A stretch of DNA of 64,000 bases, from positions 14,328,770 to 14,392,769 of the forward strand of contig CM119271.1 in assembly GCA_051294375.1 (NCBI GenBank), given 5' to 3'. Position numbers and translations under genes: made by a program. Position 1 is the first letter of the stretch, and each line of letters opens with the position of its first letter. The stretch comes from Paraspadella gotoi. Its lineage: Eukaryota; Animalia; Chaetognatha. The notes under the pieces are model-generated. The model did no database searches and was not told where the DNA came from. It was given only the letters and a program-made list of their open reading frames with translations. Shown piece by piece: positions 1,119-64,000 of this stretch.

Positions 1119-2795
1119 TCATTTCCGCGCCGTATCGAAGTTGTCGACGAACCAGGCGCAGGTCGTCTTCACCGCCTCTTCGAACGGCGTGAACCGAAAA
1201 TCGGGCAAGAAACCGCGGAGTTTGGCGTTGGACGCTGTCTTCTTGTGCTGCCCGTCCGGTTTGGTGGCGTCGTAGACGATGTCGCTGGATGGATCGAGGC
1301 CCATCGCGACGGCGACTGCCTCCGCCGCCTGACGGATCGATCTTTCGTCGGCCTCGTCGCCGGCCAAGATCAAAGGTTCAGTGGAATCGTAGTGACGAAC
1401 CGTCCAGATCTATAATTTACAATTTTTTTTTATTAACAATTTAACCTTGGAACGTATTGATTTATTAATTGATAATTAATTATTAATTAATTGATTAATT
1501 AATTAATTGATATTGATTTATCTTCATGAACTATAAAAGACTTGTACCATTAGTTTCGCGAGATCCTCGGAGTAAATAAACTGACGCAAAGGCGATCCCG
1601 ATCCCCAAACGGTAAGAGGTTCGCCTTTTCGTTTGGCCATGTAGCACTTGTGCATCAACCTTTTAATATTTTTTTTGAGAGCTTAAAATAACCCCGTGGT
1701 AATTCTTCGAATATTGCTTGGGTGATTAAATTTAATACAAAATGATTAAAAAAATCATACCCAGGAAGAACATGGCCGTCTTCAATGTTAAAGTTGTCGT
1801 GAGGCCCAAAAATGTTGGTTGGAATGACCGAAGTATAGTTGCGGCCGTGTTGCTGTTTGTAGCCCTGATTGAGAACATCTAACATTCGTTTCGCGTAGGA
1901 GTAACCGAAGTTTGAATCGTGCGGAGGCCCGTTGTGAACCATGGCTTCGGTAATTGGGTAGGGAGTCTTGTCTGTAATGTAGAGAAGATAATAAAATTAT
2001 CCTTTTAAAGTGAAACGGGTAATTCAAAGGGAATCGTATCTATCTTAAATTAAAAAAAAATTAAAATTAGTTATAACTGAGACTATACTGTGGGATTACC
2101 CGGAAAAACGCAGGTTGAGAGACACGAGACGACTTTTTCGACGTCGAATTCGTGGGCTGCGGACAACACGTTGTCGTTGATGATCATATTCGCGCGAAAA
2201 AAGTCGAGATTGTATCTGAAGATAAGAAATTTGTTTTATTGGCAAAAATCCAACGAAGGAAATCGCTTATGGAATAATAAATGTTATGGTGGACTAAAAT
2301 CCACCAACCGTTCATCAGCGGCCATTGGTGCCGGAGGCAAGTCATTCGCCTCCCAACCCAAAGGTCCGGTTTCTAGCCCGGTGGTCGTCTGGCAGTTAAG
2401 CGGGACGGGCGCTTAACCCGCCTGTAACATGCTGTTACAGCCTGATCCGAAGCTCAGGGACTGCTTATATTGAACAGTTCTGTCACTAACACATAACAAT
2501 AATTACTGTCTCTTCAATGTTTATTGATCTAATTCCTCGAATATGACTTCATCATCTTTTAACCTTTGTAGCCTCACTTGAGATTCTTGAAGAGGCCTCC
2601 GACCATGGCTGCGAGATGAAGCACGTGCGTCGGGCGGTGAAGACGAAAGAATTCCCTCGTCGACTCCATGTCAGCCAAGTCAACATCCTTGGAGGAGACG
2701 AAAATCCAGTTTTCGTCGCTGTCTCCCGATTCCTTGATCACCTTTTCCACGGCTCGACCCACCAGGCCAGTCCCTCCAGTTACTATGACTTTCAT
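1119..2795 (-). CDS. GFUS: GDP-L-fucose synthase (FX/TSTA3), ~5 exons
   Basis: [13 protein letters not shown]ossmann motif; [75 protein letters not shown]...[19 protein letters not shown] introns. Confidence 0.96.
2318..2500 (+). mobile_element. tRNA-derived SINE-like element (tRNA-Gly-like head) in GFUS intron 1
   Basis: 2318-2388 folds like a degenerate tRNA: acceptor GCGGCCA/TGGTCGT, T-arm CCGG-TTTCTAGC-CCGG with a degenerate B-box, anticodon-loop-like CTCCCAA but a poor anticodon stem. Followed by hairpins (GTTAAGCG...CGCTTAAC; TGTAACA-TGC-TGTTACA) and an ACATAACAATAA tail. Confidence 0.6.
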
Positions 2796-3309
2796 GGTTA
2801 TTGTCTCGGTTAGCAAAGATTAAAAGTTTATGAATTTTTTTTTCTTCTAAAAACTCGAAAAGGATAAAATGCTTTATAATTACGCGCTACAATTTTAAGC
2901 AACGATAATCGCTTATTATTTCAAAGTATTTTCAAATTCGGGAACCTTTAAAATCAAATAGCAGAGACCGTTGGCCGCACCAGCCGCAGTAACAGACTCG
3001 TCTAGTCGAAGCTGGAACACTGACCGACATTAAAACTGAATGACTAACGCGCTATCGCCGTTTTTTATTTAAAATTTAACTTTTCGAGAATTAATTAATT
3101 AATCCTATTAATTAATTAATCCTATCCTCATTCAGTATCCACTATCCCTATCCAGTATCTACTATACCTATCCAGTATCCAAGACAGAAAAAGGCCCATG
3201 TTCGAGGAAAGAATGATTTTTATACATGTTGGTCTTACTCTAAAGTTACTGAACTAACGGTTACCGTTACTTACCCCTGGACGTTTGAAGATGAATAGAT
3301 CATACATTA

Positions 3310-61463: not shown

Positions 61464-64000
61464 TCATTGAGATTCGACGTCGATGTCGTCGTCGTCGTCG
61501 TCATCGTTTCCAATGTCTTCCTCCGTCTCCTCCACGTCAGTGTCATGAAAACGTCGACCGGGATGGCGACGCAACTGTACCTCCTTCACGTAAACATACA
61601 TAGAGAATGTTGATGATGACAAAGACGATGACACTGATGACGATGCTATCATGATTTAGGACATTTATTACCTCGTGCTCGTCCTCGTCTTCATCTTCGT
61701 TTCCTTCCCGCCAAGATTCCCGGTGCGACTTTCGTTCGCTTGAGGCCGAAGTTTGCTGACCCGACCCGCGACCTGAACCTTGACCCGATTCTTGACCCGA
61801 TGATGCGTGACCCGACGACCTACGACCTTCCGACGCTTCGCCGCCGTTGTTCCCTTCGCTCAGAGATTCCACAGCGGCGCTAGTGTCGTCGTCGTGGTCG
61901 TGATCCTTTGTGGAAGACGAATGGACAAGGGAATGTCAAATCTTATTTGCCTGTTGCAGTTAATTTCCCAACCAGATCGTGGTTGTCCATTATGAGACAA
62001 CCAGACAATACAATCTGAACAACTTTGTTTCAAATTTTGCGATTGGCAAAAGAAGAGCATTTATTTTAATGTTAGACGGCGAAGCATTTTTATTTCTCAC
62101 AAATAAATAAAACCGTAGCCACCACCCGACACTCAGACGAAAATGATATGGGAAAGAACAATAAATTAAACACAATGGCAAGTTCAAAATTAAATTTCAA
62201 TAATTGCGATTGAGGGGGTGGAATCGACCAAGCGAATATTCCATTATTTTCCCTCAAAAGTCTATGTTGACCAATGACCATATAACACGTTAAAAAGAAA
62301 AGATAAGTAAATCAGCAGATTTTTCGGGGGAGAAAAGGTAAAAAAGAAAAGAGATAAATTAAAAAGTTTATTTATTGCTTTTTTTAAATTGCATTTTCAT
62401 TCGCCGTATCTCACTGAATGACTTATCGTCAACCAACCCTCCCAAGAACTCGTCCCCCCCTCCCACCGTACCTGCATCTCCATGACGTCGACTTCTCTTT
62501 GGACCAAAGGATCGGGAATTCCCTCTCTCCCGTTTCGAGAGTCGGAGTCCGCCATCGACACCGCCGGCGCCGCTGGAGGAGGCTTCGACTCCTCCTCTTC
62601 CTTCTCATTCTCCTCTTCCTTCTCCTCGTCGGATCGACCTCCGAACGGACGACGACATCCGCCGTTCGTCACGGATGTGGTGGGCGTGTCGCCATCGGCG
62701 GTCGACGTCGGGCGGCGGCGAAGAAGAAGACGCCGCACCGCGGATTTGAGACTGCTGTTGCTGAAGCGACACCTGTTGCTGCAACAGCTGTTGTCGCTGC
62801 GACGGCGGGAGGATGGGAGATTCCTCGAGATCGGCGGAACTTCGAGAGTCGGTCGAGTCCCAAGCGAAACGACGCCCGCTGAAAAATAAAGAGTCAGAAA
62901 ATAATATATCTCTCTCTTTCTCTCTCTCTCTCTCTCACTCACCCCTTGACGCGTCCAACGGGCTGGGCGTCGCCGGACGAGGCGGGCGTGGCGCCGTTCA
63001 ACTTCCGGTCTCCTCCGGCGTTGGACGATCCTCCCGAGTTGAAGACGCTGTCGTTCTCGTAAGGACCCAAAGATCTGGACATGAACTTGGCGCTTTTGGT
63101 GACGCGCGGCGATCCGAAGCAGTGCATTGGAGAAGATGCGGACGACGCCGCCGCGCCCATCGGGTAAAAGGACGACGCCGACGCCGGGTGAGGCGCGCCG
63201 GCGGAGCCGGGAACGATGGGCGAGGAAGGAGGGGAATGGGTGACGGAAGGAGTCCGGCGATGATCTTGAGATTTTTTGGAAAAGGGAAAAGGAGAATTAA
63301 GAAGAAAAAATATGAGTCGGTAAGGGGCGAGGGCGAGACTAAGGAAGGGACAAACATCTATGAGGAAAAGTGATAAAGGATAAAGGAGGGTACATAAACA
63401 AAAAAAGTTCCTTACTCGGCAGAGAAACGCTGAGCGAATCCGCGCCGAGGGTGTCGTTCAAACTGGAATGACTCAGCCGATACATTAACTCTTCGTTCTC
63501 CATTGAAATGCGCTTTTTTGCCTGAAAGAATGGAATTAAAATTGAAATCGATTACAATAGAAGGTAATAAACTTAAAGGTTCCCGTCCCTCCTTTCGTCC
63601 TTACCTGCGCCTCCCTGTCTCGCTCGACCCTGAGCTGCTGCTTCTCCTGATGCAGCTGCCTCTCCTGATCCGTCTTGGCCGAGAGCATCGCCGTCAGATC
63701 CTCCACCTTCTGCTCGAGTCGTTGCACCGTCCTTCGAGATTCCATTAACTCTTCCTCCTTCTTGGAGACTTTGTCCAGACGTTGTCGACATTTGCGTATT
63801 TCCTCGTTCTTCATGTCTGGAGAAGACAGGATCAAATAGAAGTGAGAAGCGTTCTTTTTTATCTTTCTCTAAAATCACCATAAATTCCTCACCCAAAACG
63901 ACTTTAAGAGACTCGACCTCTTGGTCGAGGTTCCTGGCTTCGAGGCTGCAGCCGACGGCGGCGTCGACTTTGTCCTTCTTGCGGCGCGAGGCTTCGCCCG
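61464..64000 (-). CDS. MTUS/CCDC69 (toucan-like) microtubule-associated coiled-coil protein, 5'-truncated by the window
   Basis: NLDQEVESLKVVL|DMKNEEIRKCRQRL...QRLEQKVEDLTAMLSAKTDQERQLHQEKQQLRVERDREAQ|AKKRISMENEELMYRL matches the MTUS1/2 motif KRLSMENEELLWKL. Ser-rich/acidic tail; 3' end approximate. Confidence 0.8.

What the first reader, a model, noticed from the sequence alone, without database searches (positions are those of the whole stretch)
1119..64000. At least 23 consecutive co-directional genes: a candidate giant polycistronic (operon-like) unit in an animal
Seen: every full gene from GFUS to the MTUS-like gene is on the minus strand, with no divergent promoter pair in 64 kb. CDS-to-CDS gaps are mostly 0.3-0.6 kb (STAG-FKTN ~376, FKTN-MZT2 ~356, MZT2-NDUFB9 ~358, ME-PPM1K ~362, PET117-ACL4 ~283, PET117-PPM1K 55 bp). 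Introns and intergenic DNA are T-rich on the same strand. Random orientation of ~22 independent genes gives roughly 2^-21. Known: nematode, tunicate, flatworm and chaetognath operons are usually a few genes long and enriched for mitochondrial and basic expression genes, whereas very long directional clusters are typical of trypanosomatids. The content here fits that enrichment (NDUFB9, ATP5ME, PET117, PPM1K, ME, RPL26, RUVBL1, ACL4, PSTK). Inference: one mega-operon or a chain of same-strand operons.
Basis: partly seen in the sequence, partly recalled or inferred. Interest (0 to 1): 0.9.

Follow-up and report, generated by a model that had tools for sequence, protein, structure and literature searches.

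The report
Arrow-worm one-way chain of long operons
In an animal that its spliced leader marks as an arrow worm (chaetognath), 23 mostly housekeeping genes lie head-to-tail on one strand, one of them carries a spliced leader and assembled RNA contigs bridge five neighbours; this is likely a chain of unusually long operons and may mean that these animals arrange their genes in one-way blocks, as trypanosomes and dinoflagellates do.

Summary
Orientation largely confirmed: 23 genes lie on the minus strand (19 with Pfam hits). The only plus-strand domain hit is a zinc-finger exon in a fold-back beside an N gap, likely an assembly artefact. The animal is a chaetognath: its closest RPL26 relatives carry translated chaetognath spliced leaders, and an RNA-like run shows the leader's last 9 bases on the acceptor upstream of STAG, 119 nt from RNA cover of FKTN. 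One spliced 4.3-kb contig spans ATP5ME-NDUFB9-MZT2-FKTN and overlaps the ZnF1 contig; contigs do not prove one transcript. A single 64-kb unit is less likely: three natural 1.4-1.7 kb spacers each hold the same 9-mer, found exactly nowhere else in the window. Best reading: a chain of about five same-strand, leader-resolved units, with a core of 14-15 genes (35-38 kb, gaps 55-701 nt). Chaetognath operons are known (longest nine genes; Oikopleura 13). A 158-kb Spadella BAC shows the same polarity (14 of 14 named host genes), and the papers searched do not quantify it. Promoters and genome-wide runs were untestable.

The parts
61464..64000 (-).
   Evidence: GT-AG introns; no meaningful Pfam hit
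59770..61463 (.). long spacer 1 (1694 nt) with the 9-mer TCACGGCGA at 60711-60719 (+); candidate promoter region
   Evidence: promoter role inferred
57940..59769 (-). malectin
   Evidence: PF11721
56510..57939 (.). long spacer 2 (1430 nt) with the 9-mer at 57447-57455 (-) and a duplicated 43-nt GGGCGG-containing motif (57141-57254)
55740..56509 (-). RPL26; unpaired acceptor candidate at 56558
   Evidence: PF16906; acceptor score; relatives' transcripts carry SL translations
53352..55322 (-). three-LIM-domain gene (Ajuba/WTIP-like; name recalled)
   Evidence: PF00412
51679..53351 (.). long spacer 3 (1673 nt) with the 9-mer at 53048-53056 (-); T/A skew fades in its last 700 nt; candidate start of the core unit
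50271..51678 (-). PSTK-like P-loop kinase, first gene of the tight core
46799..49730 (-). YLPM1-like P-loop protein (name recalled)
   Evidence: AAA_33
43211..46375 (-). ACL4-like TPR protein
42450..42927 (-). PET117
   Evidence: PF15786
40594..42394 (-). PP2C phosphatase (PPM1K-like); 55 nt from the PET117 stop, with AATAAA at 42435 and an AG directly before the ATG
   Evidence: PF00481
37808..40231 (-). malic enzyme (the N gap at 39478-39487 hides about 150 nt)
   Evidence: PF00390/PF03949; X5 contig 7 and X9 joints
34869..37268 (-). RUVBL1
   Evidence: PF06068; X9 joints
31069..34319 (-). CCDC149 (start approximate; the window has indel errors here)
   Evidence: PF09789; indels shared by X9 and X5
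28507..30470 (-). C2H2 zinc-finger gene ZnF1; acceptor candidate at 30524; an X9 contig covers 30528-31580, the whole spacer from CCDC149
27639..28040 (-). ATP5ME (ATP synthase e)
   Evidence: PF05680
26246..27190 (-). NDUFB9-like LYR protein
   Evidence: PF05347 E=6e-4; introns confirmed by X9
25374..25887 (-). MZT2, two exons
   Evidence: PF12926; joint 25479-25568
22918..25207 (-). fukutin
   Evidence: PF19737; introns confirmed by X9
22708..28469 (-). one spliced X9 contig of 4274 nt spanning ATP5ME, NDUFB9, MZT2, FKTN and their spacers; overlaps the ZnF1 contig by 30 nt (28440-28469)
   Evidence: tables 5 and 8
22588..22590 (-). trans-splice acceptor of STAG: the X9 contig starts at 22588 with 9 non-genomic bases equal to the 3' end of chaetognath SL forms 2-4
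   Evidence: table 7; PMC2481426 Table 3; site named beforehand
16813..22541 (-). STAG/SCC3 cohesin subunit
   Evidence: PF08514/PF21581/PF24571; tblastn with P0001
14103..16111 (-). C2H2 zinc-finger gene ZnF-A (tandem copy of ZnF-B; has a deletion and frameshifts, real or assembly errors)
12686..13848 (+). plus-strand arm of a fold-back holding the ZnF-A last exon (ORF 12775-13572); beside a 25-N gap; likely an assembly artefact
9626..12592 (.). about 3-kb element with terminal inverted repeats (104 nt, 93%) inserted in the duplicated spacer before ZnF-B
   Evidence: no Pfam hit in its scanned ORFs
7193..9385 (-). C2H2 zinc-finger gene ZnF-B
   Evidence: PF00096
4851..6829 (-). unidentified four-exon gene (NCOA4-like by recall only)
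   Evidence: open exons with GT/GC-AG introns; no Pfam hit
3310..4071 (-). unidentified two-exon gene
   Evidence: only a low-complexity Pfam hit
1119..2795 (-). GFUS (GDP-fucose synthase-like epimerase)
   Evidence: PF01370

Best explanation
The window holds 23 same-strand genes of a chaetognath, with a spliced leader on STAG and RNA contigs bridging five neighbours, and is likely a chain of about five co-oriented transcription units, whose core (PSTK-like to STAG or ZnF-A, 14-15 genes, 35-38 kb) is likely one long operon or a few abutting ones. Inferred mechanism: RNA polymerase II starts in the long spacers (candidate 9-mer element about 0.9-1.4 kb before malectin, RPL26 and PSTK) and runs on through successive genes. 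Each upstream mRNA is cleaved and polyadenylated, and a U-rich stretch with an unpaired AG about 30-150 nt before the next ATG receives the 36-nt leader, which caps the downstream RNA so that transcription continues. Shown: orientation, spacing, the leader at STAG, contig bridging. Inferred: phylum (strongly), promoters, number of units, processing order.
For: SL 3' end at 22588, at the AG named beforehand; the 9-mer does not lie at that genomic place. FKTN RNA cover reaches 22708, so at most 119 nt separate it from that acceptor. A 4274-nt spliced contig crosses three gene boundaries and overlaps the ZnF1 contig; another covers the CCDC149-ZnF1 spacer to 4 nt from the acceptor. RPL26 relatives at 95-96% identity begin with translated chaetognath leaders, one matching SL3.2 in 10 of 10 residues. 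Core gaps are 55-598 nt for 14 genes. Acceptor scores within 150 nt before the ATG beat the opposite strand (median 7.4 vs 1.5 bits, p=6.5e-5) and shuffles (5.1, p=0.0025); 12 of 22 have no donor in the spacer. The 9-mer occurs exactly 3 times, once per natural long spacer; 5 of 500 simulations gave such a shared word. The S. cephaloptera BAC has 14 of 14 named host genes on one strand (PMC2481426 Table S5).
Against: The leader was seen at 1 gene only; none was listed at ATP5ME, NDUFB9, MZT2 or FKTN, which the contig passes without a loose end (pruning of graph branches could hide them). Contigs from one RNA-like run of one study cannot show a single molecule; long 3' UTRs overlapping the next gene would give the same path, and one intron had low cover (6.8), so precursor or DNA is present. 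Acceptor scores do not beat windows after stop codons (5.2 bits, p=0.068) and the STAG site scored only 4.8 bits (shuffle p=0.78). In O. dioica a distance-predicted nine-gene operon broke into a 3-gene and a 2-gene unit under long reads (10.64898/2025.12.04.692336). The 9-mer was found post hoc in three spacers.
Confidence: 0.6

Rival explanations
1. Most genes have their own promoters; they are trans-spliced singletons or 2-5-gene operons packed head-to-tail, and contigs join them through overlapping UTRs. The same orientation is a legacy of operon formation and breakup, or avoids collisions.
For: In P. gotoi nearly half of genes are trans-spliced but only 18% are in operons (PMC12460157), so a leader does not imply a downstream position. 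Spacers of 350-600 nt could hold a promoter overlapping a 3' UTR. Distance-based operons can break up under long reads.
Against: Gaps of 55 and 166 nt, and at most 119 nt from FKTN RNA to the STAG acceptor, leave little room. Published operon rates predict only 0.037 runs of >=23 per genome. The candidate 9-mer is absent from all short spacers, even with one mismatch (the 22 near matches fall in or at coding exons by coordinate).
Confidence: 0.23
2. The whole window is part of one trypanosome-like polycistronic unit of more than 64 kb with one upstream promoter; the long spacers are long 3' UTRs, outrons or insertions.
For: No credible opposite-strand gene in 64 kb; T>A skew stays positive over the three long spacers as wholes (0.16, 0.11, 0.09); the 4.7-kb gap is explained by an artefact plus an inserted element; the 158-kb BAC is also polar.
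Against: A shared 9-mer marks exactly the three long spacers; the skew fades in the last 700 nt before PSTK; the 3-kb inserted element is T-skewed too (0.18), so skew is weak evidence of read-through; the longest animal operon I found in print has 13 genes.
Confidence: 0.12
3. The run is a chance extreme picked from many windows, or is produced by mis-assembly.
For: The scan selects extremes; five independent units agree in strand 1 time in 16; the assembly has N gaps, indel errors and a fold-back.
Against: An independent DNA run is colinear over 24320-27089, 27335-30271, 33126-37302 and 37318-42997; RNA contigs link five genes; a second chaetognath locus is polar as well.
Confidence: 0.05

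Closest known systems
Chaetognath SL-resolved operons (Spadella cephaloptera RPS14-PCNA, PMC2481426; Paraspadella gotoi, PMC12460157)
   Same: Same phylum by leader sequence; head-to-tail housekeeping genes; leader on a downstream gene; no special leader class expected.
   Different: Published: operons called at <250 bp, 5,061 genes in 2,151 candidates, longest nine genes. Here 23 co-oriented genes with a tight core of 14-15. The 2025 main text has no occurrence of 'strand', 'orientation' or 'directional'; the 2008 paper only remarks that further BAC genes share orientation. The 2025 operon table (xlsx) could not be read, so part of this cluster may be listed there.
Oikopleura dioica and Ciona operons
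   Same: Leader without operon-specific class; housekeeping content; short intercistronic distance.
   Different: Longest 13 genes in 14 kb by long reads and seven in Ciona (PMC7986045); the core here would be 14-15 genes in 35-38 kb with about 100 introns in the window.
C. elegans SL2 operons
   Same: About 100-nt intercistronic distance (99-105 bp) resembles the <=119-nt U-rich stretch before STAG.
   Different: Chaetognaths lack an operon-specific leader; nematode operons are short (recalled: 2-8 genes).
Unidirectional gene blocks of dinoflagellates and kinetoplastids
   Same: Long runs of unrelated co-oriented genes in organisms with spliced leaders; in Symbiodinium 50% of genes lie in blocks of nine or more (PMC8110479).
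   Different: Here an animal with intron-rich genes, only about half of genes trans-spliced in the studied relative, and likely several promoters inside the block; genome-wide extent untested.

Membership tests
Chaetognatha (source of the window) | Chaetognath-type 36-nt spliced leader on transcripts of this organism | tested here: met
   9 of 9 bases of the loose end at 22588 equal the 3' end of SL forms 2-4; only the last 9 bases were seen
Chaetognatha (source of the window) | Closest protein relatives are chaetognaths | tested here: met
   3 of the 8 best RPL26 hits (95-96% identity) start with translated chaetognath leaders; the hits themselves are unnamed
Chaetognatha (source of the window) | Phylogenetic placement | tested here: inconclusive
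   STAG tree of 46 of 120 listed proteins: the relative P0001 is a long unresolved branch; no named chaetognath in the set
Metazoan SL-resolved operon | Co-directional, closely spaced genes | tested here: met
   14 core genes with CDS gaps of 55-598 nt
Metazoan SL-resolved operon | Downstream gene trans-spliced close to the upstream gene's 3' end | tested here: met
   Met for FKTN-STAG only (<=119 nt); no leader listed at the four other starts in that stretch
Metazoan SL-resolved operon | Polycistronic precursor crossing gene boundaries | tested here: inconclusive
   Spliced contig crosses three boundaries and overlaps a fourth, but contigs are not molecules
Metazoan SL-resolved operon | One promoter, none inside | not testable with these tools
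   Needs CAGE/ATAC; only a post hoc 9-mer in the long spacers
P. gotoi operon criterion (<250 bp between annotated genes) | Gene-to-gene distance under 250 bp along the whole core | tested here: inconclusive
   Met for PET117-PPM1K (55), MZT2-FKTN (166), FKTN-STAG (<=119) and by contig bridging for ZnF1 to MZT2 and CCDC149-ZnF1; UTR ends unknown at the other boundaries
Kinetoplastid polycistronic transcription unit | Tens to hundreds of co-oriented genes | tested here: met
   At least 23, both ends open
Kinetoplastid polycistronic transcription unit | Essentially intronless genes (recalled) | tested here: not met
   97 donors and 101 acceptors listed in the window, median intron 88 nt
Kinetoplastid polycistronic transcription unit | Every mRNA trans-spliced; initiation only at unit starts; genome-wide (recalled) | not testable with these tools
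   No genome held, no raw RNA reads; about half of genes trans-spliced in P. gotoi

The most novel reading that the evidence does not exclude
Chaetognaths organise their housekeeping genes genome-wide in unidirectional blocks of tens of genes (60-160 kb), built from operons of 15 or more genes with few promoters marked by a lineage-specific element: the first animal with dinoflagellate- or trypanosome-like gene blocks, and the longest animal operon on record.
Probability: 0.33. Interest if true: 0.85.

Novelty: new variant of a known kind. Interest (0 to 1): 0.58.

Why it matters
Animal operons are treated as short exceptions (longest found in print: nine genes in chaetognaths, 13 in Oikopleura), and long one-way gene blocks as a protist trait. 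If the core here is one unit, it matches or exceeds the animal record, and the <250-bp rule undercounts chaetognath operons. If the polarity seen here and in the Spadella BAC is genome-wide, it shows how far trans-splicing can push an intron-rich animal genome towards promoter loss, and offers a test of whether operons drive gene-order scrambling and chromosome folding. The first test needs only an existing annotation file.

Tried and rejected
No whole genome is held, so genome-wide run lengths and the window's flanks were not examined. Rfam and ARAGORN found nothing in the window, so no SL RNA or 5S gene at those thresholds. No RNA holder is on record; X9 is a guessed RNA run, judged RNA-like from its splice joints and leader end. 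Parts without X9 cover (22589-22707; by bin arithmetic about 34321-34409) are not used as evidence. Contig depths were not used to rank genes. The first laying had its loose-end table filled by low-complexity matches (458 rows not shown) and gave no leader. The metagenome scan for NDUFB9 relatives used a query in the wrong frame and returned one irrelevant locus, L001, so conservation of gene order in other chaetognaths is untested. The STAG tree did not place the organism. Three look-ups of earlier scan findings returned nothing. The plus-strand zinc-finger ORF was rejected as a true strand switch: 1066 of 1085 columns identical to the other arm, N gap at its edge, and its far end joins the sequence beyond the gap exactly as in the 16560-16365 paralogous spacer; not checked with DNA reads. 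Frameshifts in STAG, ATP5ME and CCDC149 were rejected as biology: X9 and, where laid, X5 carry the other form. The 2^-21 figure was rejected as a test because genes are not independent. Ten literature searches listed no paper on unidirectional gene blocks in chaetognaths or other animals; the library lacks most subscription papers.
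Full report
What was checked. I read the whole window, listed ORFs and scanned 150 of 159 plus-strand ORFs and 149 minus-strand ORFs against Pfam, then 20 single exons. No whole genome is held.

Orientation. Twenty-three genes lie on the minus strand from 64000 to 1119; 19 have Pfam hits at E<=1e-3. The 97 donors and 101 acceptors I listed are all GT/AG on that strand, median intron 88 nt, and the intron joints shown for run X9 agree (11 CT..AC and one GC-AG among 15 rows shown; 10 of 10). 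The only plus-strand domain hit is 12775-13572, a copy of the ZnF-A last exon. It is one arm of a fold-back (12686-14923) that ends at a 25-N gap. The arms match in 1066 of 1085 columns, and the far end of the plus arm continues into the sequence beyond the gap exactly as the paralogous spacer at 16560-16365 does. ZnF-A and ZnF-B are 91-94% tandem copies.

Spacing. Of 22 CDS-to-CDS gaps the median is 490 nt, 16 are <=600 and 4 exceed 1 kb. The 4717-nt gap is the fold-back arm plus a 3-kb element with terminal inverted repeats. The three natural long spacers cut the run into MTUS-like; malectin; RPL26-LIM; and a core from PSTK-like to STAG (14 genes, 34.9 kb, gaps 55-598) or ZnF-A (15 genes, 37.6 kb), followed after the insertion by ZnF-B, two unidentified genes and GFUS. 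FKTN-MZT2 is 166 nt, not 356. An independent DNA run, X5, is colinear over most of 24.3-43.0 kb.

Which animal. The eight best RPL26 hits (93-96% identity) are unnamed proteins from the source labelled 'merc' (a marine plankton catalogue, as I recall). Three of them begin with an extension that is a translation of chaetognath spliced leaders: form SL3.2 of PMC2481426 Table 3 gives EANFYYFTCL, identical to P0127. In X9, a contig starts at 22588 with nine non-genomic bases equal to the 3' end of SL forms 2-4. A STAG tree left the relative P0001 unresolved. I conclude chaetognath from the leaders.

Trans-splicing and read-through. The leader sits on the AG at 22589-22590, 48 nt before the STAG ATG, the site my acceptor matrix had named, though with a low score (4.8 bits). 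RNA cover of FKTN reaches 22708, so at most 119 U-rich bases lie between. One X9 contig of 4274 nt runs from 28469 to 22708 with its introns removed and all three spacers kept, through ATP5ME, NDUFB9, MZT2 and FKTN, and overlaps the ZnF1 contig by 30 nt. Another covers the CCDC149-ZnF1 spacer to 4 nt from the acceptor. Limits: one run, guessed RNA, contigs not reads; no leader was listed at the four other starts; one intron had low cover. Across 22 genes, acceptor scores before the ATG exceed the opposite strand (7.4 vs 1.5 bits, p=6.5e-5) and shuffles (5.1, p=0.0025) but not windows after stop codons (5.2, p=0.068); 12 of 22 have no donor in the spacer. PET117-PPM1K has AATAAA 40 nt before the next ATG and an AG directly before it, like the three-base RPS14-PCNA junction described in PMC2481426.

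Where units may start. A search for words shared by the three long spacers and absent from core spacers gave one GC-rich 9-mer, TCACGGCGA. It occurs exactly three times in 64 kb, at 60711, 57447 and 53048, about 940, 940 and 1370 nt before malectin, RPL26 and PSTK; 5 of 500 order-2 simulations gave such a shared word; the 22 one-mismatch matches fall in or at coding exons (by coordinate). The flanks do not align. This is post hoc, with three spacers, and only a lead, but it argues for promoters inside the window and against one unit.

Chance. A run of 23 is expected 0.0025 times per 21,072 genes at random and 0.037 times with the adjacency implied by published P. gotoi candidate operons; about 0.67 same-strand adjacency is needed for one per genome. 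Five independent units agree 1 time in 16, so long operons alone could explain this window. A second locus points further: Table S5 of PMC2481426 (158-kb S. cephaloptera BAC) has 24 rows, 19 plus, 4 minus, 1 blank; the minus rows belong to transposon-labelled models, and all 14 named host genes are plus. Seventeen model numbers are not listed, and the BAC was presented for its operon, so this control is biased.

Mechanism. Most likely (0.60) a chain of about five co-oriented units with a long core: initiation in the long spacers, then coupled 3' cleavage and leader addition at each short spacer. Rivals: mostly own promoters with short operons (0.23), one unit over 64 kb (0.12), chance or mis-assembly (0.05).

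Known and new. Seen: PMC12460157 (outline, passages, section 10, search of three PDF supplements; operon xlsx unreadable, figures not held): 10,197 of 21,072 genes trans-spliced, 18% in operons, <250-bp rule, longest nine genes, no mention of strand or orientation. PMC2481426 (passages, supplement 2). PMC2566580, PMC7986045, PMC11067885, PMC2776167, PMC8110479 and 10.64898/2025.12.04.692336 (passages): Ciona up to seven genes, Oikopleura up to 13 by long reads with a predicted nine-gene operon not confirmed, Symbiodinium with half its genes in blocks of nine or more. Ten searches listed no report of unidirectional blocks in an animal. So this works like a metazoan SL operon chain and meets the tested features at FKTN-STAG; it is not a kinetoplastid unit (intron-rich). 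New are the length and the long-range polarity. Novelty: new variant of a known kind; interest 0.58.

Noticed in passing
window 60711, 57447, 53048: The 9-mer TCACGGCGA occurs once in each natural long spacer and exactly nowhere else; candidate chaetognath promoter element.
   Followed up: partly
window 57141-57254: A 43-nt motif with GGGCGG is duplicated 70 nt apart, about 600 nt before the RPL26 acceptor.
   Followed up: no
window 9626-12592: About 3-kb element with 104-nt terminal inverted repeats and further copies of its end motif inside (11364-11635), no Pfam hit; inserted in a duplicated STAG-to-zinc-finger spacer.
   Followed up: partly
window 13655-13958: The zinc-finger duplication carried along a piece of the STAG stop codon region and 3' UTR (matches 16810-16854 and 16412-16558), so the duplicated unit includes its upstream 3'-end signals.
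   Followed up: partly
window 22492, 27376-27673, 33967-34588, 39478-39487: Indel errors of the assembly frameshift STAG, ATP5ME and CCDC149; the 10-N gap in malic enzyme hides about 150 nt. The third LIM-gene exon also has no clean frame.
   Followed up: yes
window 37201, about 35319, 21062, about 6416: Four probable GC-AG introns among about 100 (RUVBL1 twice, STAG, the 6829-4851 gene), more than the roughly 1% I recall for animals.
   Followed up: partly
window 42394-42450: PET117 and the PP2C gene are 55 nt apart with AATAAA and an AG directly before the ATG: the tightest junction and the best RT-PCR target.
   Followed up: partly
window 3310-4071 and 4851-6829: Two spliced genes without Pfam hits; possibly lineage-specific.
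   Followed up: no
window 280-1000; 32506-32632 and 54460-54588: An inverted-repeat element (79%) after GFUS, and a short repeat shared by two introns with high DNA cover.
   Followed up: no
whole window: [quoted passage not shown]
   Followed up: no
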